Below, piece by piece: positions 3,145 to 33,246 of a DNA stretch of 35,625 nt. Where the stretch lies: contig JALUAR010000215.1 of the NCBI GenBank assembly GCA_027050975.1, positions 2,375 to 37,999 of the forward strand, read 5' to 3'. The DNA is from Thermodesulfovibrio sp. (GTDB lineage Bacteria; Nitrospirota; Thermodesulfovibrionia; Thermodesulfovibrionales; JdFR-85). Made by a program: the position numbers and the translations under genes. The notes below the pieces were generated by a model that saw only the letters and a list, made by a program, of their open reading frames with translations, had not been told where the DNA came from and did no database searches. How positions within the stretch are numbered: the stretch's first letter is position 1; each line of letters begins with the position of its first letter.

Positions 3145-3149
3145 AAAAA

Positions 3150-3179: not shown

Positions 3180-3250
3180 AAAAGGGCTACTATAGTATTT
3201 ATTTATAAACAAACAAATTAAAAAAAACTAAACTTTATATTTACAAGATA

Positions 3251-5361: not shown

Positions 5362-5426
5362 TGTCATCCTCCCTTAGATGTTCATAATTACTTCATTCTA
5401 TGGTTACGGAAAACTTTTGTCAAGAT

Positions 5427-8189: not shown

Positions 8190-8203
8190 AGGAGGTGTAT
8201 TCA

Positions 8204-8635: not shown

Positions 8636-9024
8636 TGAAAGAACTGTTGACACTATGCCGGCAACTACTTGATATATCTCAGCAGCAGAAAAATGCCCTT
8701 GACAGGGGAGAAGTTGATTACGCTGTTACGCTCCTACAAGAGAGGCAGCGAATTCTGGAGAATATTCAAAAAATTGACATAGCCTCCTTCAGAAGTAAGG
8801 ATATTGACAGTGACAGAAATTCCTCAATGGAGGAAAAAATTGCCGACGAAATAAAGACGTTGGTAGGCATGATCCTAAATGTAGACAGAAAATCAAAGGA
8901 ATCGATACAGAATAATATGTGGTCAATAAAGAGGAAGCTGCAAACAGTAAAGAAGATGAAGGATGGTTTTTGTCAAGGGGGGATTAACAGTGCAAGGGCA
9001 TCAAAACTAAATATTAATGTTTGA
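8632..9024 (+). CDS. putative flagellar export chaperone (FlgN/FliT-like helical protein)
   Basis: 130 aa and predicted helical. LL.LCRQLLDISQQQKNAL.RGEVD....LLQERQ.ILE.I resembles FlgN/FliT-type chaperones. It has an ATGA overlap with the fliS stop and occupies the position usually held by fliT/flgN-like genes. Confidence 0.4.
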   Translation: MMKELLTLCRQLLDISQQQKNALDRGEVDYAVTLLQERQRILENIQKIDIASFRSKDIDSDRNSSMEEKIADEIKTLVGMILNVDRKSKESIQNNMWSIKRKLQTVKKMKDGFCQGGINSARASKLNINV

Positions 9025-9160
9025 ATATTACAGTAACCCTTCATTAACAATTTCTGCATTCTTTCTTACAAATCCGCCTTGTTCTCTTCTGGTATAAATT
9101 TTGCTTTCATAGAGTATGTGTTCCTAAAAACTTCTTTCTTTAATTTTTAACTGGATAAAA

Positions 9161-10357
9161 ATGAAAGCTGATATCAACGTGAGAGTATTGACAGAAGAAA
9201 GGACTGACCAACGAATGTTCATACCTTTTGGAAAGCCTAATTTTTGTGATGATGAGATCGAGGCTTTGATTAGAGTTATGCGTTCCGGATGGATTGGCAT
9301 GGGGCCAGAGACCATAGCCTTTGAGAAGGAGCTTGCCAGTTTTTTAAAGGCACCATATGTTGTTACTGTAAATTCCTGCACTTCGGCTCTGTTTTTATCT
9401 CTCCTTGTGCTGGGTATAAAGCCAGGAGATGAGGTCATATGTCCAAGCCTGACCTGGTGCAGCACTGCCAATGCCATACTTTATACAGGAGCTACACCTG
9501 TCTTCTGTGATATTGACCCAAATACCCTGTGCCTGACTCCTGAAAGCGTTGCTGCAAAGATTACCGACAAAACCAAAGCTGTTATTGTCGTCCATATGGG
9601 AGGATATGCCGTTGATGTAAACAAACTTGCTAAAGCTTTGCCAGAGCATGTTGCAATTGTTGAAGACGCTGCTCATGCATTGGGCGCCAAATATCCTGAC
9701 GGAACCTGCGTTGGCTCCTCCGGCAATCTGACATGCTTTAGTTTCTATGCAAACAAAAACCTCTCTACAGCAGAGGGAGGAGCCATAAGCTTATTTAATG
9801 AAGAGCTATATACAAGACTATGTTCTTTAAGACAGCATGGTCTTAACTCAGATGCATGGAAGCGGTATATAAATCCTCAAGCTGCTCTTGTTCCTTTAAT
9901 AAGTGAATTAGGATACAAAATGAACTACACCGATCTTCAAGCCTGTATCGGACGAGTACAACTAAGGCGTCAACAGGAATTCTTTAAAATCAGAAAGGAA
10001 ATCGCTTCTATATATTATGAGGAACTACAGAATACCGGAGTAGAGTTTCAGAGAGACTGTCTTGCAGAAAGGCACTCAAGACATCTCTTTACAATACTCC
10101 TTCCTATTGAGAAGCTCTCGAAATCAAGAGACGAATTTGTTATTGAATTAAGAAATCGTAATATAGGTGTGGCAATACATTATCCCCCTCTTCATAAAAT
10201 GCCACTGTATAGTCAATACTGCAAAGATGATCTCATAAATACCGATTATGTGTGTGAACGAATATTGACACTGCCGATCAGTGCATCTATGAGTTTCAAG
10301 GATGCACGCCATGTATTTACTGAATTCTTGAGGCTATTTGAACAGAGTCTTACATAA
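9161..10357 (+). CDS. DegT/DnrJ/EryC1/StrS-family PLP-dependent sugar aminotransferase
   Basis: FIPFGKPNF.DDEIEAL..V.RSGW...GP....FE.E.A.F......V.V.SCTSAL.L.L, then DAAHALGA and SFYANKNLSTAEGG (catalytic Lys). The alternative start at 9215 (MFIPFGKP) would give a more typical N-terminus. Confidence 0.88.
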   Translation: MKADINVRVLTEERTDQRMFIPFGKPNFCDDEIEALIRVMRSGWIGMGPETIAFEKELASFLKAPYVVTVNSCTSALFLSLLVLGIKPGDEVICPSLTWCSTANAILYTGATPVFCDIDPNTLCLTPESVAAKITDKTKAVIVVHMGGYAVDVNKLAKALPEHVAIVEDAAHALGAKYPDGTCVGSSGNLTCFSFYANKNLSTAEGGAISLFNEELYTRLCSLRQHGLNSDAWKRYINPQAALVPLISELGYKMNYTDLQACIGRVQLRRQQEFFKIRKEIASIYYEELQNTGVEFQRDCLAERHSRHLFTILLPIEKLSKSRDEFVIELRNRNIGVAIHYPPLHKMPLYSQYCKDDLINTDYVCERILTLPISASMSFKDARHVFTEFLRLFEQSLT

Positions 10358-10394
10358 ATTATTTCAATTATTTCAGATCATAAGAAATCTATAA

Positions 10395-11270
10395 TTGGAG
10401 AAATATGGACAGATGGTGAAAGTAGAAAAACCCATCTTTATTGTTGGTTGTGGCAGGTCAGGAACAACACTGCTATTTAACATAATGAAAAAACATCCTC
10501 ATCTTGTTGGTACCACAGGATATCCTGACGGTGAGGATCATATCGGTTGGATTAAACATGGAAAATGTATCATAAGCGGGCTCGGGTATTCTCACATAGA
10601 GAAAGGTCATACGGGCTATCATTACTGTCTCTATATGGATGAAAAGCAGGTGACTCCAGATATTATCAATACCATGAGAGCTTACTACTACAATGAAGTT
10701 CTGTCAGGTGACAGTTCAAAGCGGATTGTAAACAAATGCCCTCATCTGTCCAACAAACTCAGATATATCCGAGCGATCTTCCCGGATGCAAAATTTATTC
10801 ATATTATCAGAGATTGTCTGCCTGTTGTTTCAAGCTGGATCAAGATCATGGAGACACAGCCCTTTCAGGTTTTATACTGGCCGGATGTGGAGTTCCCTTG
10901 CTTCTGGGTACTTCCGGCTCCACAGGACAGGGATAGAGAAACTGTGTTTCATAACAATGACAGAGTATTCCCTGGAGGCGGTGCAGCACGTATCGTGGAT
11001 TATTGGACAGCTGTAAATAGTTACATTCCTGTCCAGCTATACGATTCTCCTGACCAGCTACTTACGATAAGATACGAGGATCTTTGCCGTAACCCACAGG
11101 CATTGTTAGAAATAATCTGTGACTTTTGCGAGATTCCTCCTTTTGATGACATACCTGTAGATATTACACCTAATACAAACGAAAAATATAAGGAAGTTCT
11201 AACAAGGGAACAGATAGAGGAGTTTTTAAGACGTTCACATGCAACCCGGGTACTTTATGGATATGTTTAG
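10395..11270 (+). CDS. sulfotransferase-family protein (PAPS-dependent)
   Basis: IFIVGCGRSGTTLLFNIM is a 5'-PSB loop (GxxRSGTT). IHIIRDCLPVVSS is a 3'-PB-like motif. The track start is TTG at 10395, and ATG at 10413 is an alternative. Confidence 0.75.
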   Translation: MEKYGQMVKVEKPIFIVGCGRSGTTLLFNIMKKHPHLVGTTGYPDGEDHIGWIKHGKCIISGLGYSHIEKGHTGYHYCLYMDEKQVTPDIINTMRAYYYNEVLSGDSSKRIVNKCPHLSNKLRYIRAIFPDAKFIHIIRDCLPVVSSWIKIMETQPFQVLYWPDVEFPCFWVLPAPQDRDRETVFHNNDRVFPGGGAARIVDYWTAVNSYIPVQLYDSPDQLLTIRYEDLCRNPQALLEIICDFCEIPPFDDIPVDITPNTNEKYKEVLTREQIEEFLRRSHATRVLYGYV

Positions 11271-11280
11271 GAGTTAAACA

Positions 11281-12282
11281 ATGGCAATCGCGGCTAAAGA
11301 AACTTCTGACAGCAAGAGCAGATACGGTTTTTACGGACGGCTGAGAAGGGAATTCCCTTCTCAGGTGATAGTGGATATAACCGAGGTTTGCAACCTTGCA
11401 TGTATTCATTGCCCACATAATGAGTTCAAAAACAGCCGTTATTACAATGCCTCTCATCTTGACCCGGAATTAAATGCCAGGATGGTGGATGAAGTTAAAG
11501 AACATGGTAAAGGCATAACACAATATATACGTTATGCCAGCAATGGCGAGTCTCTTCTGCATCCTCACTGGTATGAAATGATAAGATACGCGGCCCACAA
11601 CTCCGGTGTGATGGTAACACTCACAACTAATGGAACGCTTCTCAATGAGAAGAGAACGCAGATGTTGCTTGACTCGGGGGTGCATCTGATTGATATTAGC
11701 ATTGATGCATTTACAGCTGAGACTTATGCCAAAGTTCGGATAAAAGGAGACCTATCTGTTACCAGAACAAATGTTCTCAGATTGATCAACTGGGTAAAGG
11801 AGTCAGGATTAAAAACCAAGGTGGTAGTCAGTTTTGTGGAGCAGCCAATAAATCTGCATGAAAGAGAGGATTTTGAAGCCTTCTGGAAAGACCAGGGGGC
11901 AGATTATGTTGTAATACGCAGACTCCATTCCTGTTCAGGGGCCAAGACTACCCTGGCGGCTATGAGAAGAAGCCACAATCAAGGGAAAAAGAGACGGCCG
12001 TGTTTGTATCCGTGGGAAAGAATTGTGCTGAATGCAAGAGGCGAATTATCATTCTGTCCTTCTGACTGGGTACACGGGTCAGTTATAGAGGATTATCGCA
12101 ACACAACGATAAGAGAATGCTGGCAGGGAAGTTTCTACAAAGAACTCCGGCAGGCGCACCTGTCAGGCAATTTTAGCAAGCACCGATTCTGCAGAGACTG
12201 TCCGGACTGGGAAGCAACACGCTGGCCCTGGGAGGGGCGAAGTTACGCTGATATGATAGAGGAGTTTAAGGGAGGAGAATGA
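11281..12282 (+). CDS. radical SAM enzyme with a partial SPASM/twitch C-terminal domain
   Basis: DITEVCNLACIHCPH is a CX3CX2C motif. The C-terminal CLYPWERIVLNARGELSFC fits CX12GX4C and is followed by FCRDCPDW (CX2C only). Confidence 0.85.
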   Translation: MAIAAKETSDSKSRYGFYGRLRREFPSQVIVDITEVCNLACIHCPHNEFKNSRYYNASHLDPELNARMVDEVKEHGKGITQYIRYASNGESLLHPHWYEMIRYAAHNSGVMVTLTTNGTLLNEKRTQMLLDSGVHLIDISIDAFTAETYAKVRIKGDLSVTRTNVLRLINWVKESGLKTKVVVSFVEQPINLHEREDFEAFWKDQGADYVVIRRLHSCSGAKTTLAAMRRSHNQGKKRRPCLYPWERIVLNARGELSFCPSDWVHGSVIEDYRNTTIRECWQGSFYKELRQAHLSGNFSKHRFCRDCPDWEATRWPWEGRSYADMIEEFKGGE

Positions 12283-13037
12283 AGCTTACGGACAAAACAA
12301 TTCCCGTTATCAGGCAGATAGAAGAGATGGTACAGGACATACCTGGCTGGACACCTGTAGATGAGTTATACACGCTCTTTAATCTGGCCTTCATAACAGC
12401 GGATCTGGATGGAGACATTGTAGAGATTGGGGCCTGGTGTGGCAGGTCATCTGTGGTATTAGGGATGGCTGCTAAAATGACTGGTAACACAAAACTAATC
12501 TGTATAGACCTCTTTCCGGAAAAGGATGACTGGAAGCAAAATCAGGACGGAAGCTATTCCTTTGAGGTATTAATAGGTGATAAAAGGTATGGTGGCTATC
12601 AGGAACAGACAGTTTGGAAAGAGCCTTTTGAACGTGATATAGCTCCACTTTATGAGCAATACAACAGTGTATTCGATATTTTTTACAAAAACATAAAAAA
12701 GTATAACCTTACAGATATTGTCAGACCTTTTCGAGGCACATCTGAAATACTGAAAACCAACATGCCCATAGACTTCAGGTGCAGGCTTGCCTTTATCGAT
12801 GGTGACCATAGTTACAGAGCGGTATGTCAGGATATCAAAAATATAGAACCATTTCTGGTCGAAGGCGGCTGGCTCTGCTTTGATGATGCCTTCACCACCT
12901 ACAACGGAGTAAATCAAGCTATAGAAGATCTCATAATCAATAACCCAAATTATGAACTCTGCCAGCAGATGACAAGGAAGTTTTTCATAGCAAGAAAAAA
13001 GAGAACCGTTCCATATGGAAAATATAGCAGGGACTGA
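12279..13037 (+). CDS. class I SAM-dependent methyltransferase (Methyltransf_24 / TylF-like fold)
   Basis: IPGWT...EL..L..LA......GDIVEIGAWCGRSSVVLG.A and FIDGDHSY..V..DI......L..GG...FDD are typical of this family. It has an ATGA overlap with the upstream stop. Confidence 0.75.
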   Translation: MKLTDKTIPVIRQIEEMVQDIPGWTPVDELYTLFNLAFITADLDGDIVEIGAWCGRSSVVLGMAAKMTGNTKLICIDLFPEKDDWKQNQDGSYSFEVLIGDKRYGGYQEQTVWKEPFERDIAPLYEQYNSVFDIFYKNIKKYNLTDIVRPFRGTSEILKTNMPIDFRCRLAFIDGDHSYRAVCQDIKNIEPFLVEGGWLCFDDAFTTYNGVNQAIEDLIINNPNYELCQQMTRKFFIARKKRTVPYGKYSRD

Positions 13038-13041
13038 ACAT

Positions 13042-13749
13042 ATGAGAGTTGGAATTATTCAATCAAGTTACATACCCTGGAGAGGATACTTTGATTTCAT
13101 TGACAGTGTAGATCTGTTTATTGTGTTTGATGACGTAGCATACGGATCTAAAGGTAATTGGAGAAATCGCAACAAAGTCAAGACCCCAAAGGGCCTGAAA
13201 TGGCTAACAGTACCTGTAAAAAGCAAGAGAGAGATGCCGATAGATCAGGTGCTTATATGCAATTCTGAAAAGTCCTGGCAGGACAGACATCGTGGTCTTT
13301 TGAGATACTCTCTCGAGCCTGCTCCATACTTCAAGGATGCAATGGAAATCTGGGAAGAAGGGGTCTCCGCAGGGGACTCCACAATCACTCAGCTTAATCT
13401 TAGATTAATCAAGCTGATCTGTGTATATCTTGATATAAAAACTCCCATCGTAATGTCACGAGATTACAGAGTGGAGGGCTCAAAAACTGAGCGATTAATA
13501 AACCTGCTTAAAAAGGTGGGAGCTACCGTTTACCTCTCCGGACCGACAGCCAAGGCATATCTTGATGAAAACCTCTTTGAGATACACGGTATCGGACTGG
13601 AATACAAAACATATGATTACAAACCATACCCACAACTATGGGGAGAGTTTGTGGACACTGTAACGGTCCTGGATATGATTGCAAATTGTGGACCTACGGC
13701 AAAAGATTATTTAAAAAGTCAAACACCTAATGAGGTTGCAGTAAAATGA
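13042..13749 (+). CDS. WbqC-like family protein (polysaccharide-cluster protein of unknown biochemical function)
   Basis: MRVGIIQSSYIPWRGYFDFI..VD.FI.FDDV.Y.....WRNRN.VKT..G..WLTVPV matches my recollection of the WbqC family N-terminus. The track start at 13015 overlaps the previous gene, whereas the ATG at 13042 does not. Confidence 0.7.
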   Translation: MRVGIIQSSYIPWRGYFDFIDSVDLFIVFDDVAYGSKGNWRNRNKVKTPKGLKWLTVPVKSKREMPIDQVLICNSEKSWQDRHRGLLRYSLEPAPYFKDAMEIWEEGVSAGDSTITQLNLRLIKLICVYLDIKTPIVMSRDYRVEGSKTERLINLLKKVGATVYLSGPTAKAYLDENLFEIHGIGLEYKTYDYKPYPQLWGEFVDTVTVLDMIANCGPTAKDYLKSQTPNEVAVK

Positions 13750-15926
13750 GAATCGGTTTTATAGGGAATGCGAATAATTATCCTTTTATGCTAGCCCGTG
13801 CTTTCCGGAGAATGGGGCATGATGTGCTTTTTATTATAACGCATGACAGGCGAACACCACTTGATCGTCCTGAGAACAAGTATAAGGATCTTTCAACATA
13901 TCCTGAATGGATATACGATGTGAGTCCCTTGGAGTTGTGGAATCATGCAGATCGGGACGAACAGAAAGAAAGAGATGTCGTGAGCTTGCTGAAGACATGT
14001 GATCTTGTAGTACTGAACCAATACGCAATATGTCTTGCACCAGAGATAAACCGTCCAAGCGTAGCTCTCTTAACCGGAACAGATCTTTTGACACTGGCAA
14101 GGCCAGAGCATGTAGATGAGAGATTGAAAAGCTCCGGACTGAATCCATCAAGTCCGGAATACGAGAGAGCACGCCGGTTTTACGAGGAACGTGTTAGTGC
14201 TCAGCGCCTTGGGATTAGTCAAGCTGTTGTCGTAGTCTTTTTCCCTGAAGGGGCATTTCCCAGGGCTGATAAATTGTTAAACGAGTTAGGAGTAAATAAC
14301 CGGCAAAGAACATTCTTCTTAATGACAGACACCCATGATATAGCCTTTTCACCGCCTCCATCCAACAGAATTATCAGAACATTCTGCGCAACGCGGCTTA
14401 CATGGGACAGGTCCAAGCCACCGTTTTATACGGATCTGGATTATAAAGGCTCGGATATCATGATAAGAGGCCTTGGACTTTTCTACAGAACCCATAAGAC
14501 ACCCCTTGATATTCACCTTGTACGGAAAGGTGCACATGTTCCAGAAACCATGGAACTGGTCCGACAGGAGGGGCTTGAACCATTGGTTACCTGGCATGAC
14601 GAGATGAGCCAGATTGAGGTCCTGGAGCAAATGAAAAAAGCGGATATCATTTTTGAACAGTTAGGAGACAGTATGTTCGGAATGGCCGGTCTTGATGCCA
14701 TGGCAGTCGGTCGTCCTGTCATAGCCAATGGACGTTCTGAGATAATGGAGAAGGTTATGCCATCGCCGCCTCCTATCTGTAATGCAAAAACCCCTGAGGA
14801 TGTCTGCTCTCAACTAAAACGGCTTGTTTTCAATCCGGAAGAAAGGGAGCGTATTGGAAAGGCTTCAAGAGAATATGTTGAAAAATATTTCTCTTCTGAC
14901 CTGGCGGCCGAGATCTTGATTAATAAAATAGACTCATACGTCATCTCATCCATTGTCAGTCAAATCTGTGAAACCTTTAAGCCTGGCAGTGTAATAAATA
15001 TCGGTTACAACTCTGAGGAATGGCTTAAAGAGTTTGAGCTAAGAGGAGTTACTGTAGCCGGTTTCAGCAAAGACAACCCAAACTCAAAACTGGAGAGACA
15101 TTATGATCTCTGTCTTTGTCTCGATCCCCCGGAAGCTCTGACCAACGAACAGGTAGATTCTTTAATATCTTCATGCTCAAATTCAAGTAATACGATTATA
15201 TTCGCCACTTCACTGCCTAATACATTTTCGAATGAACGACCGATTTCCGTTTTAGTTGAAAAATTCTATAACCACGGATTCGTATTCATTGATAATCTAA
15301 CCCCCTATTTCCATAAACTCCTCTGTCTGTCAGAAAAAACAGCTAAATTGAATATCCATGTTTTAAAGAGGATGTTCTCTGACAGGGATCTGGAGACTCT
15401 TGCCACTGCGTTTCCCCAGATACCCGATATACTCAAGAACAAGGAAAGATGCATTGAGGATCTTTTCAGATATCTCTTCCATGAAAAACGAACCGTTGTG
15501 CTTCAAATGCAATCACCCTCAAGGAGAGACCTGGAAGAATCTGACAAGAAACTCTCCTCTGCTGTTGAAAACATGCCGGCTATAGACTTTGTACTACCGA
15601 GGGAGTATATTTTCCATGAAGAAGGATACTGTTACATCTATCCTTTCAGAACCATGGCCGCAAAAATGTTTTCATACTTGCCGGTTTACAATCACCTGAT
15701 TCTGTATGAAGATGGAAATCCTCTGCCTCTTGGAAATGCTCTTCATGAGGAGATCAGAAGAGCTGGCAAAGGAAGGTATTCCATGTGGTATGAGCAGATA
15801 TACTTCTCTACCTCTGACAATTCCGACCCCCGCACAAACGGTCGTACTTACAGTGTCCGTGTTCCTTCTTACATTTATGTTCTGGAAAATTTGCCGGAGG
15901 AACAGATTAGGGGGGTGAATCTATGA
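13746..15926 (+). CDS. 726-aa multidomain protein: N-terminal GT-B (GT4-like) glycosyltransferase, a central degenerate methyltransferase-like segment and a C-terminal domain of unknown function
   Basis: MRIGFIGNANNYPF at the N-terminus and FGMAGLDAMAVGRPVIANG...P.DV...L..L..NPEERERIG..SREYVEKYFS form a GT-B C-lobe. The central VINIGYNSEEW...DLCLCLDPPE looks Rossmann-like. I do not recognise the last 150 aa or so. Confidence 0.55.
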   Translation: MRIGFIGNANNYPFMLARAFRRMGHDVLFIITHDRRTPLDRPENKYKDLSTYPEWIYDVSPLELWNHADRDEQKERDVVSLLKTCDLVVLNQYAICLAPEINRPSVALLTGTDLLTLARPEHVDERLKSSGLNPSSPEYERARRFYEERVSAQRLGISQAVVVVFFPEGAFPRADKLLNELGVNNRQRTFFLMTDTHDIAFSPPPSNRIIRTFCATRLTWDRSKPPFYTDLDYKGSDIMIRGLGLFYRTHKTPLDIHLVRKGAHVPETMELVRQEGLEPLVTWHDEMSQIEVLEQMKKADIIFEQLGDSMFGMAGLDAMAVGRPVIANGRSEIMEKVMPSPPPICNAKTPEDVCSQLKRLVFNPEERERIGKASREYVEKYFSSDLAAEILINKIDSYVISSIVSQICETFKPGSVINIGYNSEEWLKEFELRGVTVAGFSKDNPNSKLERHYDLCLCLDPPEALTNEQVDSLISSCSNSSNTIIFATSLPNTFSNERPISVLVEKFYNHGFVFIDNLTPYFHKLLCLSEKTAKLNIHVLKRMFSDRDLETLATAFPQIPDILKNKERCIEDLFRYLFHEKRTVVLQMQSPSRRDLEESDKKLSSAVENMPAIDFVLPREYIFHEEGYCYIYPFRTMAAKMFSYLPVYNHLILYEDGNPLPLGNALHEEIRRAGKGRYSMWYEQIYFSTSDNSDPRTNGRTYSVRVPSYIYVLENLPEEQIRGVNL

Positions 15927-16963: not shown

Positions 16964-16990
16964 CGTTTGGAACAACTATAGGAAAAGCTC

Positions 16991-23488: not shown

Positions 23489-23502
23489 TTTCAGGAGACG
23501 AG

Positions 23503-28114: not shown

Positions 28115-30981
28115 GCAGCGGTTACAATATTTTGACATTCAATTGGCATGAAGGCTATCTTTATACTCTTTCAAGGATAGGACATCATTTTGATATTGTG
28201 CCACGTCTAAAGGGCGGATACAGCGACTGGATGTACCAGTTTCGTCCTCTTCCGGCAAACGCCTCTCTTGTTACGGAAGATATGGCCAGAGCCAACCTCA
28301 AGGCTGATAAATATGATTGTGTAATCTGCCACAATTTATTAGACATTTTTGATGTCTCATCATTTAATGTGCCCAAGATTCTGATTTTTCATACAAAACC
28401 GTCTGCTCTCTTTACTCCTGAAGGTTTACCTGTAAACAAATCTTTATTTATATCCGATTTAAAGAAACTTACCTGTTCCAGTGATAGACTGTTGATTGTT
28501 TTTGTTTCCGAAGCCAAAAAACAGGCATGGGGCATAGATGGTACCGTCATCCCTATTGGCATAGACATAAACGATTACAAAACATATAGAGGTGATCTCG
28601 AGAGTGTCTTAAGAGTAGGTCATTTCTTAAAAGCCAAGGACACGCATTACTTTGACCTAAAAAAAATCGAGTTTCTGCTTAAAGACATTCCTGTTAGTAC
28701 TCTTGGAATAAATCCTGATATTTCGGAAGCAACCCTTTCCAGAGACTGGGATGATCTGAAAGAACATTATGCCGCTCATCGTCTTTACTTTAACACCCTT
28801 TACGAAGAGCTTGATGATGGATACAATATCTCGATGGTAGAGGCAATGGCAACGGGAATGCCTATTGTCTCAGTTGAAAACAGTACATCTCCGATCAAGG
28901 ATAGTGTTAATGGCTTCATTTCTAATGATATGGGATATCTGAGGAAGCGAATTAATGAATTACTGAATAATCCGTCTCTGGCCAGAGAGATCGGAGCTGT
29001 TGCACGTGAGACTGCTTCAAGGATGTTTAAATTAGATGATTTTATTGACAGATGGCACAGGGCTATTGAGACGGTAACGGTTAAAAGACCGGGAAGCAAA
29101 TTGCTTGGTTCAGGTCTTGCAGAGAAGAATTCAATGTCGGTTTCTACTCCTGACAATAACACCTCCGCAGCCAGCGCTGTTAATGTATCAATCTCCAGGA
29201 ACTCAACTTTTGATAATAATATAAAAATTCTCCGTGAAAAACAACCTGATCTGGCAGAGATCTTGAGCAGGACAGTCCCTTCTTCAGAATACAAAAAAAA
29301 AAAAAAAAAAAACGGTGAAAAAACTCTCAGGATAAACAATACAACTCTACATAGCCTTTATGATCCATCAGGAGAGGCTGAACTCTGGCTAACATCATAT
29401 CAAAACATCACCCCAAATACATCTGTTTTGGTTGTTTTAGGCTTCGGGCTTGCCTATCACATTGAAAAGCTCTGTGGTGCCACTGATAAAGAGATTATCG
29501 TCATGGAGCCGGATTTGAAAACCCTGAGGATAGCCCTTTCCGTGAGAGACCTGCAACATGTTCTTAAAAGGATTAGCATCATTACTGATTATTCTCTCCC
29601 TTTCATAAAACAGAGATTTACAACCCTGGAGTTTTTACCTTCGGTAAAACTGCATCCTCAGTATTTCGAATTTGTTAAGTCAAGGCTACAGCTAAACAGA
29701 AGGATGCAGAGAGGACTGAAAATCATGGTGGTAGGGCCTATTTATGGCGGTTCGCTTCCTATTGCTCAATTCTGTGTAGAGGCATTAGGTAACTTAGGAC
29801 ATAAAGTGGATTATGTAGACAATAGCATATACAAGGATGCCTATCTTTCGATCACTAAAATTACATCCAACCGAAGAGTACAGGATCTGCTCCGTGCCAG
29901 TTTCATTAATTTCGCCTCCGAGGCTGTACTGGCACGTTGCGAGGAATTTCAACCTGATATTCTCTTTGCCCTTGCACAGGCTCCGATTAACGAAACTACT
30001 CTATTAAAACTGAAATCTACCGGTGTTCCCACTGCTTTCTGGTTTGTAGAGGATTACAAATTGATGACATATTGGGAGCAGATAGCCCATCTTTACGATT
30101 ACTTTTTTACAATCCAGAAAGGAGAGTTCTTTAGCGCATTGAAAGCCAGAGGAATAAAAAACGTTCATTATCTGCCACTGGCTTCATCTCCTTCTGTACA
30201 CAAGCCTTTAAATCTCTCGGAGGAGGAAAGAAACCTGTATGGCAGTGACATCTCCTTTGTAGGCGCAGGTTATTACAACCGTCGCTGCCTCTTCGAAGGT
30301 CTGCTTGACTTTGACTTCAAAATATGGGGAAACGAATGGGATATGAGTTCCTCTCTTGGGAAATTTATACAACTTGAAGGCAGACGAGTGGATACCGAAG
30401 AGATCGTAAAGATATTTAATGCATCTAAAATCAACATTAACTTACACTCTTCACCATATCATAAAGGTGTAAATCCGGATGGCGATTTTGTAAATCCGAG
30501 AACATTTGAGATAGCTGCTTGCGGTGGTTTTCAGCTGGTGGATCAACGGTCACTGCTTCCGGAGTTATTTGAGATCGACAAAGAGATTATCTGCTTTACC
30601 GGCCTTGAGGATCTAAGAGCAAAAATAAGGTTCTATCTTTCACGCCCGGAAGAGCGACAGGAGATCGCTCAAAGGGCTCGAGAACGGGTCTTGAAGGAGC
30701 ATACGTACGAACTGCGTATGCAGGAAATGCTCTCTTTTATATACGAAAATGGCATAGAGCTACCAGCCTGGAGCACTTCGAGACAGTCAATAGACACTAT
30801 GATTGAAGAGGCCGGGGAAGACACGGAGTTGAGGGCTTATCTTAGCCAGTTTTATGACAAAGGAAGCATAGATCTTGATGACATTATTGAAAATATACAG
30901 AGCGGAGAGGGGTCTCTCTCCAGAGTTGAAAAGATTTTTCTCTTAATGAATCAGATGAAAGATGTTTATCTCCAGAAGTGA
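28111..30981 (+). CDS. 956-aa fusion: N-terminal GT4 glycosyltransferase, Ser/Thr/Asn-rich linker, Lys6, Maf-N-terminal-like module and CgeB-like glycosyltransferase domain
   Basis: GYNISMVEAMATGMPIVSVENS..PIKDSVNGFI is GT4. LHSLYDPSGEAELWL....VLVVLGFGLAYHIEKL....EIIVMEP is paralogous to the N-terminus of 23503..25194. RTFEIAACGGFQLVD.....ELFE.DKEIICF..LEDLR.KIRFYLS.PEERQEIA.RARERVLKEHTY is CgeB-like. Confidence 0.7.
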   Translation: MSSGYNILTFNWHEGYLYTLSRIGHHFDIVPRLKGGYSDWMYQFRPLPANASLVTEDMARANLKADKYDCVICHNLLDIFDVSSFNVPKILIFHTKPSALFTPEGLPVNKSLFISDLKKLTCSSDRLLIVFVSEAKKQAWGIDGTVIPIGIDINDYKTYRGDLESVLRVGHFLKAKDTHYFDLKKIEFLLKDIPVSTLGINPDISEATLSRDWDDLKEHYAAHRLYFNTLYEELDDGYNISMVEAMATGMPIVSVENSTSPIKDSVNGFISNDMGYLRKRINELLNNPSLAREIGAVARETASRMFKLDDFIDRWHRAIETVTVKRPGSKLLGSGLAEKNSMSVSTPDNNTSAASAVNVSISRNSTFDNNIKILREKQPDLAEILSRTVPSSEYKKKKKKNGEKTLRINNTTLHSLYDPSGEAELWLTSYQNITPNTSVLVVLGFGLAYHIEKLCGATDKEIIVMEPDLKTLRIALSVRDLQHVLKRISIITDYSLPFIKQRFTTLEFLPSVKLHPQYFEFVKSRLQLNRRMQRGLKIMVVGPIYGGSLPIAQFCVEALGNLGHKVDYVDNSIYKDAYLSITKITSNRRVQDLLRASFINFASEAVLARCEEFQPDILFALAQAPINETTLLKLKSTGVPTAFWFVEDYKLMTYWEQIAHLYDYFFTIQKGEFFSALKARGIKNVHYLPLASSPSVHKPLNLSEEERNLYGSDISFVGAGYYNRRCLFEGLLDFDFKIWGNEWDMSSSLGKFIQLEGRRVDTEEIVKIFNASKININLHSSPYHKGVNPDGDFVNPRTFEIAACGGFQLVDQRSLLPELFEIDKEIICFTGLEDLRAKIRFYLSRPEERQEIAQRARERVLKEHTYELRMQEMLSFIYENGIELPAWSTSRQSIDTMIEEAGEDTELRAYLSQFYDKGSIDLDDIIENIQSGEGSLSRVEKIFLLMNQMKDVYLQK
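29293..29312 (+). repeat. 20-nt homopolymeric A tract inside the 28111..30981 CDS (encodes KKKKKK-N)
   Basis: Counted directly: tac followed by 20 consecutive A residues, then cggtgaaaaaactctcaggataa. It is the longest homopolymer I found in the window. Confidence 0.95.
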
Positions 30982-30991
30982 GGCTTCGAAC

Positions 30992-32707
30992 ATGAAAGAG
31001 GTCCTTATAATAAATCTAACAAGGATGGGTGATCTTATCCAGACCACCCCGGTAATACAGGGACTCAAGGAAAAGTACCGGGATCTAAGAATTACCCTGC
31101 TTGCAAGCTCCTCATTTGCTTCTATTTGTAAGCACCTGCCATTAATTGACCGGGTTATTATCTTTGACATTAAGAAGGTAATCGATCTTGTGACAGGTGG
31201 TCGTATTATCGAAGGATACAGATACGTCGAGGAAATTCTTGACACTATAAACGATACTCGGTATGACCTTGCCGTTAACTTCACGCATTCCGCAGATAGT
31301 GCGGTACTTACGTCGTTGATAAACACAAAAGAGGTGCGCGGAATAAGTATGGATGCCGAGGGATATAGTGTTAAGAGACATCCCTGGATCAGATACTTCT
31401 TTAATGTAATACCCAGCAGAGAATTTAATCCTTTCCATCTCTGTGATATGCATCTGAAGGTATGTGAGGTATCTCCTGTAAAAAAAGGTCTGCATTTGAA
31501 TGTGCCTGATGAGGCGATGCATTGGATTAATGAGTTGCTTGTAAGAAAAAGATATAACTCTAACGGTCCTGTAATAGCACTTCAGTTAGGAGCCAGTGCA
31601 GAAGATAAAAGATGGCCTGTAGCCTCTTTTGCTGCCCTTGCAGATCTTCTGCAAAAAGAGCTTGGAGCTACAATAATTCTCACAGGTGCTCGGAATGAAA
31701 CAGAGTATGGTGTTGAATTTGAGCGCCTCTCAAGGGCAGAAATAATCAATCTAATTGGAAAGACCGATCTTTCCCAGCTGTCAGCCACATTAAAAGGTTG
31801 CGACCTTTTGATTAGCAACGATACAGGCCCTCTGCATATCGGCACTGCCGTGGGCACTACGGTAGTAAACATATCTCTGGCTTCAGTTCATTTCAGGGAA
31901 ACCGGTCCTTACGGAGAGGGTCATTATGTGATCGTTCCCGAAATTGCCTGTTATCCATGTAACTTCAGGTCTGACTGCAAAACCACCTTATGCAAGAAAA
32001 CGATATCGCCTGAAACGGTTCTTAAGCTGGTAAAGCTTATCTTTTCAAAAAATGAAATAGATAGCTTAGCACAGGCCCCTGAATGGGAGCAGGTACAGAT
32101 ATTTAAGTCCTTCTTTGACAGCAACGGGCTGATAGAGTACATGCCTCTCATAAAAAACAGACCGATTCATAAAGCCACCCTTTTTACCCATATTTATCGT
32201 GAAACGTGGTTGAAAATACTAGACAACAACAGGTCGATTGATTATGAGAACCTGTATCTGAAGGTCTTAAACAAACTAACCACATGGTATGATATACAAA
32301 CATTACGCAAAATATTGTCTGAAATCGAAGAGACAGAAGCACTGGAAAGGCTTGAAAAGTTTGCAGACAGTCTGCTCTCGATTCTTGATGTTATCACCAG
32401 GGAAATTCGGAAGCCCGATCACAATATTGAGCTTATAAAAACATTATGGAAGAGTGTACCACCCATTGACGAGGAATTAGAAAAGTTAGGCTGTCTTTAC
32501 CCCTCTATCAAACCGATAATTATTTTGTATAAATACGAAAAAGAATCCCTTGAAGGAAGCAGTGAGGTTGAGATATTAACTGACGCAAAGAGAATGTATC
32601 GGAACATTAAAGAGCACGCTGCTGTTTTGAGACAGATACTTTTAAAGCTTCGGGCCTGGTCTGCCATCGAAGGCAAAAAACCCTTGACTCAACAGGCTAT
32701 CTTATAG
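30992..32707 (+). CDS. glycosyltransferase family 9 (heptosyltransferase-like) with a C-terminal extension of about 230 aa of unknown function
   Basis: VLIINLTRMGDLIQTTPVIQGLKE.Y....ITLLA, then LQLGAS...KRWP...FA.LADLL, LIGKTDL.QL.A.LK.CDLLISNDTGPLHI..AVGT are GT9 motifs. The ATG at 30992 avoids overlap with the upstream gene, unlike the track start at 30962. Confidence 0.8.
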   Translation: MKEVLIINLTRMGDLIQTTPVIQGLKEKYRDLRITLLASSSFASICKHLPLIDRVIIFDIKKVIDLVTGGRIIEGYRYVEEILDTINDTRYDLAVNFTHSADSAVLTSLINTKEVRGISMDAEGYSVKRHPWIRYFFNVIPSREFNPFHLCDMHLKVCEVSPVKKGLHLNVPDEAMHWINELLVRKRYNSNGPVIALQLGASAEDKRWPVASFAALADLLQKELGATIILTGARNETEYGVEFERLSRAEIINLIGKTDLSQLSATLKGCDLLISNDTGPLHIGTAVGTTVVNISLASVHFRETGPYGEGHYVIVPEIACYPCNFRSDCKTTLCKKTISPETVLKLVKLIFSKNEIDSLAQAPEWEQVQIFKSFFDSNGLIEYMPLIKNRPIHKATLFTHIYRETWLKILDNNRSIDYENLYLKVLNKLTTWYDIQTLRKILSEIEETEALERLEKFADSLLSILDVITREIRKPDHNIELIKTLWKSVPPIDEELEKLGCLYPSIKPIIILYKYEKESLEGSSEVEILTDAKRMYRNIKEHAAVLRQILLKLRAWSAIEGKKPLTQQAIL

Positions 32708-32745
32708 TAATGTAGTCATAATTATATCTAATAGCAGGAATTTTT

Positions 32746-33174
32746 ATGGAGAACAATAAAGACAAACAGATTGCTCTTTTAGAGGCGTTAAAAAAAGGGA
32801 TTACAGAGGTTGGAGACCTCATTAGCATCGCATCGGAGGGGCTGGTTCAGTGTGCAACACTTTTAAGAGTTGATCAGTCAGAAAAGGTGTTTTCAAACCT
32901 CTCTGAAGGACTTAAAAGCCTGAATGCCATTATTGATTTTATAGTACAGGTTGAAAAAGGAATTGACCAGCTAAACACCCAGGGATATAATATTTCAAAG
33001 GACTCTCTTGCATGCTGGGGAAAATCAATTCCTGTTTTTGAGGAGATGCTCTCTGCTTTCGAATCAAAGGACTGGGTTACAGTATGCGATCTTATACAGT
33101 ATGAGATTGATCCCCTTTTGAAGGAAGGAGAGCAAGGACTCAAGTCACTTCTTGAAATCCTCAATACATATTAA
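32746..33174 (+). CDS. hypothetical acidic, predicted all-helical 142-aa protein
   Basis: A clean ORF with no competing frame. I recognised no family motif. It is the last gene of the island, immediately upstream of the second sigma28 promoter. Confidence 0.5.
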   Translation: MENNKDKQIALLEALKKGITEVGDLISIASEGLVQCATLLRVDQSEKVFSNLSEGLKSLNAIIDFIVQVEKGIDQLNTQGYNISKDSLACWGKSIPVFEEMLSAFESKDWVTVCDLIQYEIDPLLKEGEQGLKSLLEILNTY

Positions 33175-33219: not shown

Positions 33220-33246
33220 TAAAGTTTTCAGAAAAATGTCCGATAT
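33220..33246 (+). promoter_or_regulatory. second sigma28 (FliA) promoter: TAAAGTTT-N11-TCCGATAT, upstream of the flgM-like gene
   Basis: taaagttt is at 33220..33227 and tccgatat at 33239..33246. It shares ATTAAAGTTTT and AAATGTCCGATATA with the fliC promoter at 5427..5453. Confidence 0.75.

What the first reader, a model, noticed from the sequence alone, without database searches (positions are those of the whole stretch)
9161..33174. 24-kb non-canonical flagellar glycosylation island built from multidomain glycosyltransferase/methyltransferase enzymes
Sixteen co-directional genes sit between fliC-flaG-fliD-fliS-flgN-like and a sigma28-driven flgM-like gene, the usual position for flagellin glycosylation islands. 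I recognise at least 9 GT domains: two GT2, three GT4-like, one GT9 and three CgeB-like. I also recognise about 5 SAM methyltransferase domains, two TPR modules, a DegT aminotransferase, a sulfotransferase, a radical SAM/partial-SPASM enzyme, a WbqC-like protein and an AsnB-like amidotransferase. The hallmarks of described systems are missing. There is no pseB/pseI/neuB/legI-type nonulosonic-acid synthase, no CMP-sugar synthetase and no DUF115/MptE-type Maf catalytic domain. There is also no sugar nucleotidyltransferase or 4,6-dehydratase. This implies a long, heavily methylated and possibly aminated, amidated and sulfated glycan, assembled from precursors made elsewhere by enzymes of uncharacterised architecture. 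No integrase, transposase or tRNA marks the borders. No terminator is obvious in 9025..9160, so read-through from the fliC operon is possible.
Basis: partly seen in the sequence, partly recalled or inferred. Interest (0 to 1): 0.85.

Follow-up and report, generated by a model that had tools for sequence, protein, structure and literature searches.

The report
Flagellin glycosylation island, hybrid Maf-like enzymes
A 24-kb, 15-gene operon just downstream of the flagellin genes of an uncultured Nitrospirota bacterium most likely decorates the flagellar filament with a complex sugar chain, using enzymes that join the N-terminal domain of known flagellin glycosyltransferases (Maf) to a different catalytic domain.

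Summary
Bases 9161-33174 carry 15 (not 16) tightly packed co-directional genes between fliC-flaG-fliD-fliS-fliT-like and a sigma-28-type promoter. No NeuB/PseI, CMP-sugar synthetase, MptE/DUF115, nucleotidyltransferase or 4,6-dehydratase was found.

- Two proteins (P11, P13) carry the Maf N-terminal domain fused to a CgeB-type GT-B catalytic domain. A profile of that domain retrieves true Maf proteins.
- P11, P13, the GT9-plus-helical-bundle protein P14 and the small DUF8042 protein P15 form a conserved core. It recurs next to fliC/fliD/fliS and motAB in Nitrospirota and Desulfobacterota genomes. The other genes vary.
- No island protein has a membrane segment, which fits cytoplasmic, lipid-carrier-free protein glycosylation.

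Verdict: probably a real flagellin glycosylation island, and a new variant of a known kind. I found no paper describing a Maf-N/CgeB enzyme working with a DUF8042 partner. All evidence is computational; flagellin modification itself is untested.

The parts
5427..5452 (+). sigma-28-type promoter motif upstream of fliC
   Evidence: TAAAGTTT-N11-TCCGATA. Two matches in the window against 0.01 expected by chance.
5575..6417 (+). fliC, 280-aa flagellin and the presumed acceptor. Its central region (aa 143-194) is 33% Ser/Thr.
   Evidence: Flagellin_N E 3e-44 and Flagellin_C E 1e-26. Ser/Thr count.
6474..6818 (+). flaG
   Evidence: Pfam FlaG, E 1.5e-15.
6819..8189 (+). fliD, filament cap
   Evidence: FliD_N and FliD_C hits.
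8195..8635 (+). fliS, flagellin export chaperone
   Evidence: Pfam FliS, E 2e-34.
8632..9024 (+).
   Evidence: FliT E 5e-5 (24.4 bits, below the cut-off of 29.5); FlgN E 0.5.
9161..10357 (+). P1, DegT-family sugar aminotransferase
   Evidence: PF01041, E 2e-106. Below every NCBIfam equivalog cut-off, including PseC, ArnB and LegC.
10395..11270 (+). P2, PAPS-type sulfotransferase
   Evidence: Sulfotransfer_3, E 1.6e-29. Weak local similarity to protein-tyrosine sulfotransferases.
11281..12282 (+). P3, radical SAM enzyme with SPASM domain
   Evidence: PF04055 and PF13186. Closest solved relatives are MoaA and BtrN, both weak.
12279..13037 (+). P4, Methyltransf_24 (TylF/CmcI-like sugar O-methyltransferase type)
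13015..13749 (+). P5, WbqC-like protein of unknown biochemistry
   Evidence: PF08889, E 8e-69. No solved relative.
13746..15926 (+). P6, 726 aa: GT4-like GT-B plus an unassigned C-terminal ~330 aa
15923..16963 (+). P7, class I SAM methyltransferase
16991..18817 (+). P8, AsnB-type glutamine amidotransferase
   Evidence: Asn_synthase E 7e-93 and GATase_7. Passes the generic NCBIfam model TIGR01536 (asparagine synthase, glutamine-hydrolysing: 501.9 bits, cut-off 267.1). Top NCBIfam hit is the XrtA/PEP-CTERM amidotransferase, 547 bits, below its cut-off of 817.
18786..20624 (+). P9, methyltransferase + GT4 fusion
20621..23488 (+). P10, 955 aa. CgeB-like GT-B at about nt 21098-22123 and a C-terminal TPR at about nt 22763-23380. 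It has A and N where the P11 family has invariant R478 and D481.
23503..25194 (+). P11, 563 aa. Maf-type N-terminal Rossmann-like domain (nt 23503-24027) plus CgeB-type GT-B (nt 24040-25191). The most widely conserved island gene and a candidate flagellin-directed glycosyltransferase.
   Evidence: Pfam. AF2 model pLDDT 86.9. Foldseek matches GT4 enzymes and Maf 5mu5. N-domain profile retrieves true Mafs. Synteny.
25187..28114 (+). P12, 975 aa: GT2 - (GT4 N-terminal-like) - TPR - methyltransferase - GT2
   Evidence: A nonsense SNP splits it in strain variant L001.
28111..30981 (+). P13, 956 aa. GT4 (nt 28111-29100), Maf-type N-domain (nt 29293-29700) and CgeB-type GT-B (nt 29713-30735). Paralogue of P11.
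   Evidence: Maf_flag10_N 32-35 bits. BLASTP against P11 gives E 1e-31.
30962..32707 (+). P14. GT9-fold glycosyltransferase (nt 30992-31996), an invariant CxPC-x5-C-x4-C motif (nt 31949-31996) and a C-terminal helical bundle (nt 32171-32677).
   Evidence: PF01075 89.9 bits. AF2 model pLDDT 87.1. Foldseek: 3tov E 1e-16, WaaC/WaaF, TibC E 9e-7. Invariant Cys residues.
32746..33174 (+). P15, 142-aa DUF8042 (PF26154) protein. It is the regular partner of P11-type enzymes and a proposed adaptor.
   Evidence: Homologous to a ~200-aa protein adjacent to P11 homologues in Desulfobacterota (hhalign 98.7%). Present in 38 of 50 loci with enough downstream sequence.
33220..33245 (+). second sigma-28-type promoter motif; marks the end of the island
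33331..33552 (+).
   Evidence: NF041863, 26.7 bits, below the cut-off of 40. No FlgM hit.
33536..35603 (+). response regulator, then a response regulator-GAF-HD(GYP-type) protein. Conserved downstream context; followed by pilZ-motA-motB in relatives.

Best explanation
This is a flagellin O-glycosylation island that works in the cytoplasm without a lipid carrier.

**Transcription.** The 15 genes are probably transcribed by read-through from the sigma-28 fliC-flaG-fliD-fliS-fliT-like operon, or from a weak promoter of their own.

**Conserved core: P11, P13, P14 and P15.**
- P11 and the C-terminal two-thirds of P13 combine the Rossmann-like N-terminal domain of Maf flagellin glycosyltransferases with a CgeB-type GT-B catalytic domain. 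Canonical Maf has a sialyltransferase-like MptE/DUF115 domain there instead.
- I propose that P11 and P13 are the flagellin-directed transferases.
- I propose that they are helped by the small DUF8042 protein P15. It would act as an adaptor, as the four-helix protein GlfM does for Maf-2.
- The helical bundle of P14 and the TPR modules of P10 and P12 may also help bind flagellin. TPR domains do this in Maf-1 and FlmG.

**Variable genes.** The remaining GT2, GT4 and GT9 domains would extend the glycan on Ser/Thr of the short central region of the 280-aa flagellin. The variable genes would tailor it in these ways:
- amination: DegT, possibly fed by the radical SAM enzyme acting as an anaerobic sugar dehydrogenase like BtrN;
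- O- or N-methylation: 4-5 methyltransferases;
- amidation of a carboxylate: the AsnB-like protein;
- sulfation.

**Donors.** Donor nucleotide sugars must come from elsewhere in the genome. They are not nonulosonic acids made in this locus.

**Shown versus inferred.** Shown here: domain content, homology to the Maf N-domain, GT-B and GT9 folds, conserved linkage to flagellar genes, and absence of membrane proteins. Inferred: the acceptor, the order of steps, the adaptor role of P15, and the chemistry.
For: 1. Position and co-orientation directly after fliC-flaG-fliD-fliS. Sigma-28-type motifs bracket the unit. No terminator is predicted in the 136-nt spacer.
2. P11 and P13 hit Maf_flag10_N above Pfam's cut-off.
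3. A profile of this N-domain finds 4218 representative proteins at E <= 0.001. Of 78 hits of 540-700 aa that I scanned, 59 are canonical Mafs (MptE-like + Maf_flag10_N) and 18 are the CgeB type.
4. The AF2 model of P11 (pLDDT 86.9) matches GT4 GT-B enzymes (BshA, E 3e-8). It also matches the Maf crystal structure 5mu5 (E 1.2e-6).
5. The Maf N-domain is described as a degenerate Rossmann fold with weak methyltransferase similarity (PMC11339370). The P11 family shows the same weak similarity.
The 80 best are Nitrospirota and Desulfobacterota, with a few others.
7. Seventeen of 37 loci with full 10-kb flanks contain fliC, fliD or fliS. Other frequent neighbours are motA, motB and pilZ.
8. In L032, L037 and L059 the P11 homologue follows fliS within 0.5-0.7 kb; in L059 only a 129-aa ORF lies between them.
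9. The order P13-P14-P15-response regulator recurs in 27 loci.
10. A DUF8042-like ORF occurs in 38 of 50 loci with at least 9 kb downstream. In L068, L071, L077 and L078 it abuts the P11 homologue next to fliC.
11. None of the 15 proteins has a convincing transmembrane segment. There is no flippase, polymerase, phosphoglycosyltransferase or exporter.
12. The flagellin's central 52 residues are 33% Ser/Thr.
13. Precedents for adaptor- or TPR-mediated flagellin recognition exist: bioRxiv 10.1101/2023.12.03.569772 and PMC7591256.
Against: - There are no experimental data. All relatives found are from uncultured genomes.
- Linkage is not universal. A Cloacimonadales homologue (37% identical) sits among lipoprotein and LpoB genes with no flagellar gene nearby. 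Twenty of 37 full-flank loci show no fliC/D/S within 10 kb, though long islands can push these genes out of range.
- In Maf-2 the N-domain plus catalytic domain does not suffice for glycosylation without GlfM. The N-domain therefore cannot be assumed to bind flagellin.
- P15 was not compared with GlfM, and its fold was not modelled.
- No donor-sugar pathway is encoded in the window, so the chemistry is open.
- CgeB in Bacillus acts on the spore surface, not on flagella.
- P10 lacks two residues that are invariant in the P11 family. It may be inactive.
Confidence: 0.65

Rival explanations
1. The island does glycosylate flagellin, but P11 and P13 only elongate the glycan. Under this reading the initiating, protein-directed enzyme is one of three others:
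- a TPR-bearing protein: P12, whose GT2 + TPR resembles GmaR or SunS-type peptide glycosyltransferases;
- P10, whose GT-B + TPR resembles FlmG in reverse order;
- the GT9 protein P14, acting like the autotransporter heptosyltransferases TibC/AAH.
For: - TPR domains are the proven flagellin-binding modules of Maf-1 and FlmG.
- The N-terminal GT2 of P12 has a sub-threshold hit to the SunS peptide S-glycosyltransferase family (E 1.4e-11).
- The P14 model matches TibC (E 9e-7). P14 also has an invariant four-Cys motif and a helical bundle.
Against: - P10 and P12 are among the variable genes. P12-like ORFs occur in only about 21 of 80 loci. Minimal loci have only P11 + DUF8042 beside fliC.
- P14 is absent from those minimal loci.
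- P14 is much closer to LPS-type GT9 enzymes (3tov, E 1e-16) than to TibC. Sequence profiles do not reach TibC.
Confidence: 0.2
2. The locus modifies another flagellar or motility component rather than, or as well as, flagellin. Candidates are the FliD cap, hook proteins, a sheath or a motility-associated surface protein.
For: - The same synteny evidence applies.
- fliD lies in the same operon.
- The large number of transferases could serve more than one acceptor.
Against: - The Maf relatives characterised in the papers read here act on flagellin.
- The minimal P11 + DUF8042 modules lie closest to fliC itself.
- No sheath or extra surface-protein gene is present in the window.
Confidence: 0.08
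3. This is an ordinary polysaccharide locus (LPS, EPS or capsule) that merely sits next to flagellar genes. The GT9 protein would be an LPS heptosyltransferase and the AsnB-like protein an EPS amidotransferase.
For: - GT9, GT2, GT4, DegT, WbqC and AsnB-like genes are all common in O-antigen and EPS clusters.
- P8 scores best with the XrtA/PEP-CTERM EPS amidotransferase model.
- A distant P11 homologue lies in a non-flagellar context.
Against: - There is no initiating phosphoglycosyltransferase, flippase, polymerase, chain-length regulator, ABC exporter or any membrane protein.
- P14 is below every LPS heptosyltransferase equivalog cut-off.
- P8 is below the EPS amidotransferase cut-off (547 against 817 bits).
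- Maf-type N-domains are present.
- Linkage to fliC/D/S and motAB is conserved across phyla.
Confidence: 0.07

Closest known systems
Maf (motility-associated factor) flagellin glycosyltransferases, including the Maf-2 + GlfM tripartite system
   Same: - P11 and P13 share the Maf N-terminal degenerate Rossmann domain. Evidence: Pfam PF20157 above cut-off, profile retrieval of 59 canonical Mafs, and a Foldseek hit to 5mu5.
- They are encoded next to flagellin genes.
- They are regularly accompanied by a small cis-encoded protein (DUF8042), as Maf-2 is by GlfM.
   Different: - The catalytic MptE-like/DUF115 (sialyltransferase-like GT-A) domain is replaced by a CgeB-type GT-B domain.
- No CMP-nonulosonic-acid pathway is in the locus.
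- DUF8042 has not been shown to be related to GlfM.
FlmG-class flagellin glycosyltransferases (Caulobacter) and GmaR (Listeria)
   Same: They share a modular design: a protein-binding TPR module joined to a glycosyltransferase domain. FlmG uses a GT-B domain, as P10 does. GmaR uses a GT2 domain, as P12 does; the GmaR architecture is from my own knowledge, not from a paper read here.
   Different: - Domain order is reversed in P10.
- P10 and P12 carry several further catalytic domains.
- FlmG transfers pseudaminic acid.
CgeB/YkvP family (Bacillus spore-crust maturation glycosyltransferases; PF12996 + PF13524)
   Same: P10, P11 and P13 score above Pfam's cut-offs for both domains. The GT-B fold is confirmed by modelling.
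   Different: - The context is flagellar rather than sporulation.
- P11 and P13 have an added Maf-type N-domain.
- P11 has an ~85-aa helical insertion at aa 340-420.
Flagellin glycosylation islands without nonulosonic acids (from my own knowledge, not checked in papers: Pseudomonas aeruginosa a-type island with FgtA, P. syringae fgt/vio genes, FGIs of Enterobacteriaceae)
   Same: - A variable gene island next to fliC with glycosyltransferases, aminotransferase and methyltransferases.
- Strain-to-strain variation: variant L001 differs by a gene insertion and a nonsense SNP.
   Different: - The transferase families and multidomain fusions differ.
- It is larger, at 24 kb with 9 GT domains.
- No sugar-nucleotide synthesis genes are in the window.
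GT9 heptosyltransferases (WaaC/WaaF) and autotransporter heptosyltransferases (TibC/AAH)
   Same: P14 has a GT9 fold (3tov, WaaF, WaaC). Like TibC, it has a Cys cluster and could act on a protein.
   Different: - It is below all LPS heptosyltransferase equivalog cut-offs.
- It has a C-terminal helical bundle of ~170 aa that is absent from both groups.
- Similarity to TibC is structural only.

Membership tests
Maf flagellin glycosyltransferase | Central MAF_flag10 / DUF115 / MptE-like catalytic domain (PF01973) | tested here: not met
   No PF01973 hit in any of the 15 island proteins or their sub-fragments at E <= 0.01 to 1.
Maf flagellin glycosylation system | Maf N-terminal domain (PF20157) | tested here: met
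   P11 scores 24.4-26.3 bits and P13 32.1-35.5 bits; the cut-off is 23.5. A family profile retrieves 59 canonical Mafs among 78 scanned hits. Foldseek matches 5mu5 at E 1.2e-6.
Maf flagellin glycosylation system | Co-located CMP-nonulosonic acid pathway (NeuB/PseI/LegI synthase, CMP-sugar synthetase) | tested here: not met
   None found in the window. None appears among the frequent gene families of 80 related loci, which instead hold Rml- and GMD-type 6-deoxyhexose genes.
Maf flagellin glycosylation system | Genetic linkage to flagellin genes | tested here: met
   The window has fliC 3 kb upstream of the island. Seventeen of 37 full-flank related loci hold fliC/D/S within 10 kb.
GlfM-type adaptor (for P15) | Small cis-encoded four-helix-bundle protein that binds the transferase and enables flagellin glycosylation | not tested
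   Only co-occurrence is shown: 38 of 50 loci, and adjacency in minimal loci. A PDB profile search gave nothing meaningful.
CgeB/YkvP family | PF12996 (DUF3880/YkvP_N) followed by PF13524 (Glyco_trans_1_2), with a GT-B fold | tested here: met
   PF13524 scores: P10 91.7, P11 126.3, P13 153.4 bits (cut-off 25). PF12996 scores: 25.5, 43.9 and 61.5 bits (cut-off 25.2). The GT-B fold is seen in the P11 model.
GT9 / LPS heptosyltransferase | PF01075 domain and GT9 fold | tested here: met
   PF01075 scores 89.9 bits against a cut-off of 22. Foldseek gives 3tov E 1e-16, with WaaF and WaaC at E 1e-15 to 1e-13.
GT9 / LPS heptosyltransferase | Equivalog-level match to heptosyltransferase I, II or III or RfaQ | tested here: not met
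   Scores against cut-offs: 94.2 vs 185.3, 80.1 vs 134.6, 85.3 vs 170.2, and 73.6 vs 467.
Autotransporter heptosyltransferase (TibC/AAH, BAHT) | Sequence or structure membership with the iron-finger Cys motif | tested here: inconclusive
   Structure match to 4rap/4rb4 at E ~1e-6, TM 0.34-0.49. The sequence profile does not reach TibC. P14 has an invariant CxPC-x5-C-x4-C motif, but its equivalence to the TibC iron finger was not established.
FlmG-class flagellin glycosyltransferase | N-terminal flagellin-binding TPR plus C-terminal GT-B domain | not tested
   P10 has a GT-B then a TPR, in reverse order. No FlmG sequence was at hand for comparison.
Flagellin glycosylation island (generic) | Glycosyltransferase and sugar-tailoring genes inserted in a flagellar locus, acting without lipid-carrier or export machinery | tested here: met
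Flagellin glycosylation island (generic) | Flagellin actually carries a glycan that depends on the island | not testable with these tools
   Requires mass spectrometry and genetics.

The most novel reading that the evidence does not exclude
P11-type proteins define a further, undescribed class of flagellin glycosyltransferase that is widespread in Nitrospirota and Desulfobacterota. In this class the Maf N-terminal domain is coupled to a CgeB-type GT-B catalytic domain and works with a dedicated DUF8042 adaptor. It transfers ordinary sugars (hexose, 6-deoxyhexose or heptose type) rather than nonulosonic acids. If so, the Maf N-domain is a portable module for flagellin, chaperone or export-gate targeting, and it can be combined with unrelated catalytic folds.
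Probability: 0.4. Interest if true: 0.75.

Novelty: new variant of a known kind. Interest (0 to 1): 0.6.

Why it matters
**The Maf N-domain question.** Flagellin glycosylation controls filament assembly, motility and surface properties. The papers read here describe two classes of nonulosonic-acid flagellin transferases, Maf and FlmG. GT2-type enzymes such as GmaR and FgtA are known to me but were not checked in papers. The function of the Maf N-terminal domain is explicitly described as unclear (PMC11339370). A natural family in which that domain is kept while the catalytic domain is exchanged gives a direct handle on what the N-domain does.

**DUF8042.** The regular DUF8042 partner suggests that adaptor-assisted, 'tripartite' flagellin glycosylation extends beyond Maf-2/GlfM.

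**Scale and reach.** It dominates environmentally important anaerobes (Thermodesulfovibrionia, Desulfobacterota) whose surface glycobiology is essentially unknown.

**Possible tools.** The multidomain GT/methyltransferase/TPR fusions could also supply glyco-engineering tools that do not need CMP-sialic-acid-like donors.

Tried and rejected
- **Literature, no result.** 'CgeB' + 'flagellin' gave only incidental co-mentions. 'DUF3880', 'PF26154', 'WbqC', flagellin glycosylation + Nitrospirae / Thermodesulfovibrio / Desulfovibrio gave no paper describing this architecture or these islands.
- **Mobile-element borders.** No tRNA, no direct or inverted repeats of 40 nt or more, no integrase or transposase domains.
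- **Horizontal transfer from composition.** Island GC is 0.41-0.42 against 0.47 upstream. The downstream regulatory genes are 0.415, so there is no clear foreign signature.
- **Sigma-54 promoter before the island.** Only one chance-level match, and it lies elsewhere.
- **P14 as a TibC/AAH family member.** Sequence profiles reach only LPS-type GT9 structures. The similarity is structural only.
- **Solved relatives of DUF8042 and WbqC.** None meaningful.
- **P3 as a specific known radical SAM enzyme.** All NCBIfam hits are far below their cut-offs. BtrN and MoaA are only weakly similar. The BtrN-like dehydrogenase idea stays a speculation.
- **Cultured hosts of the P11 family.** The ten representatives I looked up are all from metagenomes or MAGs.
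- **Unassigned regions.** The P6 C-terminal part, the P10 N-terminal and middle parts and the P14 C-terminal part gave no significant Pfam hits.

Full report
**1. What is in the window**

ORF listing and profile searches (Pfam; NCBIfam) give the following map.
- Upstream are unrelated housekeeping genes: folD, folE, a 5-formyl-THF cyclo-ligase, a ParA-like ATPase, an amidohydrolase and a PaaK-like ligase.
- Next comes the late flagellar operon:
  - fliC, 5575-6417 (280 aa)
  - flaG, 6474-6818
  - fliD, 6819-8189
  - fliS, 8195-8635
  - a 130-aa gene at 8632-9024. It scores weakly as FliT (E 5e-5, below cut-off) rather than FlgN (E 0.5).
- After a 136-nt spacer, 15 co-directional ORFs (I label them P1-P15) fill 9161-33174. 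Gaps between them run from -32 to +38 nt.
- The pattern TAAAGTTT-N11-TCCGATA, a textbook sigma-28 promoter, occurs exactly twice. One copy is at 5427 before fliC and one at 33220 just after the island. Chance expectation is 0.01.
- The second copy precedes a 73-aa ORF. Its only family match is the DVU0524 'FlgM-associated' family at 26.7 bits (cut-off 40). It is not FlgM.
- The spacer before the island has no predicted terminator. It is less structured than shuffled sequence, z = +1.9.

**2. The domain census is confirmed**

- P1: DegT aminotransferase
- P2: sulfotransferase
- P3: radical SAM + SPASM
- P4: Methyltransf_24
- P5: WbqC
- P6: GT4-like plus an unassigned C-terminal part
- P7: methyltransferase
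- P8: AsnB-type amidotransferase
- P9: methyltransferase + GT4
- P10: CgeB-like GT + TPR
- P11: CgeB-like GT
- P12: GT2 - TPR - methyltransferase - GT2
- P13: GT4 + CgeB-like GT
- P14: GT9 plus a C-terminal extension
- P15: 142 aa with no hit in the local Pfam copy

This gives 2 GT2, 3 GT4-like, 1 GT9 and 3 CgeB-like domains, 4 firm methyltransferases plus 1 weak, and 2 TPR modules, as claimed.

No ORF matches NeuB/PseI/LegI, CMP-sugar synthetase, MptE-like/DUF115, sugar nucleotidyltransferase or 4,6-dehydratase. P1 is below all equivalog cut-offs (PseC 291 vs 424, ArnB 303 vs 631, LegC 207 vs 420). There is no tRNA, no long repeat and no mobility gene. Island GC is 0.41-0.42, lower than the upstream genes (0.47) but equal to the downstream regulators (0.415). 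Composition therefore gives no clear sign of recent import.

**3.

- Pfam reports Maf_flag10_N (PF20157) above its cut-off of 23.5 bits in P11 (24-26 bits) and in P13 (32-35 bits). In both it lies just upstream of the DUF3880 + Glyco_trans_1_2 pair.
- P11 and the C-terminal two-thirds of P13 are paralogues (24% identity over the full length, E 1e-31).
- Both share the motif HSLYDP..EA...LVVLG.GL.YH.
- I built a profile of this ~175-aa domain (A3) and searched 1.84 billion representative proteins. It found 4218 hits at E <= 0.001 and 925 at E <= 1e-10.
- I scanned 78 hits of 540-700 aa with Pfam. Fifty-nine are canonical Mafs (MptE-like + Maf_flag10_N) and 18 have the CgeB-type architecture. 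The homology is therefore firm.
- An AlphaFold2 model of P11 (pLDDT 86.9, pTM 0.80) shows an N-terminal Rossmann-like domain (aa ~1-170) followed by a GT-B fold.
- Foldseek matches GT4 enzymes: BshA at E 3e-8, then PimA, MshA and HepE. It also matches the only solved Maf, 5mu5, at E 1.2e-6.
- The P11-family profile has borderline similarity to O-methyltransferases. [quoted passage not shown]
- P11 and P13 are thus Maf-like proteins in which the sialyltransferase-like catalytic domain has been replaced by a CgeB-type GT-B domain.

**4. Comparative genomics: a conserved core linked to the flagellum**

- P11 has hundreds of full-length relatives at about 50% identity in Nitrospirota and Desulfobacterota metagenome-assembled genomes.
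I analysed the 80 best loci by tblastn with all window proteins.
- A recurrent order emerges. It matches the window's own layout and runs: P11, variable genes, P13, P14, P15, sometimes the 73-aa ORF, then the response regulator and the RR-GAF-HD protein.
  - It is often preceded by fliC-flaG-fliD-fliS.
  - In relatives it is followed by pilZ-motA-motB.
- Of the 37 loci with full 10-kb flanks, 17 contain fliC, fliD or fliS. Islands longer than 10 kb hide the rest.
- In L032, L037 and L059 the P11 homologue starts 0.5-0.7 kb after fliS. In L059 only a 129-aa ORF lies between them.
- L006 has a short island: three genes, then P11, P13 (without its GT4 part), P14 and P15.
- By contrast P1-P9 are rarely conserved. 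Homologues of each occur in 1-10 of the 80 related loci.
- Other gene families in related islands are B12-radical SAM enzymes (18 loci), GT2, TPR proteins, methyltransferases, sulfotransferases and Rml/GMD-type 6-deoxyhexose genes. Nonulosonic-acid genes are not among the frequent families.
- The island is therefore a conserved core plus variable cargo.
- Variation is visible even between near-identical strains. Contig L001 is about 99.95% identical over 14.9 kb but differs in two ways:
  - It carries an extra 999-bp segment flanked by a 342-bp duplication of the P6 3' end. This creates a 441-aa sulfotransferase gene.
  - It has a nonsense SNP (window position 26137) that splits P12.

**5. The small protein P15**

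- The database's precomputed annotation places P15 in PF26154, DUF8042.
- A ~200-aa protein family found in the Desulfobacterota loci is homologous to it (hhalign probability 98.7%, E 2.5e-16).
- In L068, L071, L077 and L078 that gene lies immediately downstream of the P11 homologue and 1.5-4 kb from fliC.
- A six-frame HMM search finds a DUF8042-like ORF in 38 of the 50 loci that have at least 9 kb downstream of P11.
- This pairing recalls Maf-2, which needs the small cis-encoded four-helix protein GlfM to bind and glycosylate flagellin (bioRxiv 10.1101/2023.12.03.569772).
- I could not compare P15 with GlfM or model it. The adaptor role is inference from co-occurrence only.

**6. P14**

- The family (about 565-600 aa) is conserved at 40-50% identity.
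- The model (pLDDT 87.1) has three parts:
  - a GT9 fold, closest to 3tov, WaaF and WaaC, with TibC at E ~1e-6;
  - a poorly modelled loop with an invariant CxPC-x5-C-x4-C motif, likely a metal site;
  - a ~170-aa C-terminal helical bundle with no match.
- It is below all LPS heptosyltransferase equivalog cut-offs.
- A protein-directed or glycan-extending heptosyl-type transfer is possible but unproven.

**7. Why flagellin, and why in the cytoplasm**

- None of the 15 proteins has a convincing transmembrane segment. There is no phosphoglycosyltransferase, flippase, polymerase or exporter. This argues against an LPS, EPS or capsule pathway. It fits the known cytoplasmic, stepwise glycosylation of flagellin before export.
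- The flagellin is short, and its central 52 residues are 33% Ser/Thr.
- TPR modules, as in P10 and P12, are the demonstrated flagellin-binding elements of Maf-1 and FlmG.

**8. Mechanism proposed (inference)**

- The flagellin-directed transferases are P11 and P13, possibly with P15 as adaptor and with the P14 helical bundle and the P10/P12 TPR domains as further recognition modules.
- The other GT domains extend the glycan.
- DegT aminates a keto-sugar. This sugar may be produced by the radical SAM/SPASM enzyme acting as a BtrN-like dehydrogenase. That similarity is weak. The three related loci that have a DegT homologue (L015, L038, L061) also have a P3 homologue.
- Methyltransferases, the AsnB-type amidotransferase and the sulfotransferase tailor the glycan.
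- The sulfotransferase's nearest solved relatives are protein-tyrosine sulfotransferases. Direct protein sulfation is therefore a minor alternative.
- P10 has A and N where the P11 family has invariant R478 and D481. It may be catalytically degenerate.

**9. Caveats**

- Everything is computational, and all relatives come from uncultured organisms.
- The linkage is not universal. A Cloacimonadales homologue lies in a non-flagellar context.
- The Maf N-domain is not sufficient for flagellin binding in Maf-2.
- Donor sugars are unknown.

**10. Novelty and score**

- Flagellin glycosylation islands, including ones free of nonulosonic acids, are a known kind.
- What appears undescribed in the searchable literature is the following combination:
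  - the Maf-N/CgeB hybrid transferase;
  - its DUF8042 partner;
  - the GT9-helical protein;
  - their conserved core in two phyla.
- I rate it a new variant of a known kind, with interest 0.6.
- The most novel reading not excluded is a new adaptor-assisted class of flagellin glycosylation system, which would also reveal the Maf N-domain as a portable targeting module. I give it a probability of about 0.4.

Noticed in passing
window 15568-15926 and 26137; locus L001 1067-2065: A near-identical strain contig (L001, ~99.95% identity) differs in two ways. It carries a 999-bp insertion flanked by a 342-bp duplication of the 3' end of P6, creating a 441-aa sulfotransferase ORF that shares its last ~114 aa with P6. 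It also has a C-to-A change at window position 26137 that splits P12 into 316-aa and 655-aa ORFs. This could be real module shuffling or phase-like variation, or an assembly chimera.
   Followed up: partly
window 31949-31996 (P14): The motif CxPC-x5-C-x4-C is invariant in 20 family members and modelled with pLDDT < 50. It is probably a metal-binding site at the junction between the GT9 fold and the C-terminal domain.
   Followed up: partly
window ~21880-21910 (P10, around aa 422-430): The CgeB-like domain of P10 reads 'HATFNIAAS' where the P11 family has invariant 'NQRVFDVPA' and P13 has 'NPRTFEIAA'. The conserved Arg and acidic residue are replaced, so this GT domain may be inactive or use a different donor.
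   Followed up: partly
L079 9872-11596 and L076 (Cloacimonadales genomes): P11 homologues at 36-37% identity lie among LPP20 lipoprotein, LpoB, methyltransferase and XdhC genes, with no flagellar genes nearby. The Maf-N/CgeB architecture may have non-flagellar acceptors in some lineages.
   Followed up: partly
related loci, e.g. L066 19757-21451 and L027 6986-8320: B12-binding radical SAM enzymes are the most frequent accessory family in related islands (22 ORFs in 18 loci). The window instead has a SPASM-type radical SAM enzyme.
   Followed up: no
L082 18851-19441: A SIS-domain (GmhA-like phosphoheptose isomerase type) gene lies ~9 kb downstream of the island in a relative. This may be relevant to an ADP-heptose donor for the GT9 protein, or may be coincidental.
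   Followed up: no
window 33536-33552: The annotated TTG start of the response regulator overlaps the end of the 73-aa ORF by 17 nt. The two may be translationally coupled, or the regulator may start further downstream.
   Followed up: no
window 10395-11270 (P2): The closest solved relatives of the sulfotransferase are eukaryotic protein-tyrosine sulfotransferases, with a local ~70-aa match at E ~1e-6. Direct sulfation of a protein rather than a sugar cannot be excluded.
   Followed up: no
window 214-5367: Upstream of the flagellar operon lie a folate-related cluster (folD, folE, 5-formyl-THF cyclo-ligase), then a ParA-like ATPase, an amidohydrolase and a PaaK-like ligase. GC is higher here (0.47) and the genes are unrelated to the island.
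   Followed up: no
L040 8259-8687 and L012 5067-5435: Some related loci carry a second FliS-like gene inside or at the end of the glycosylation island.
   Followed up: no
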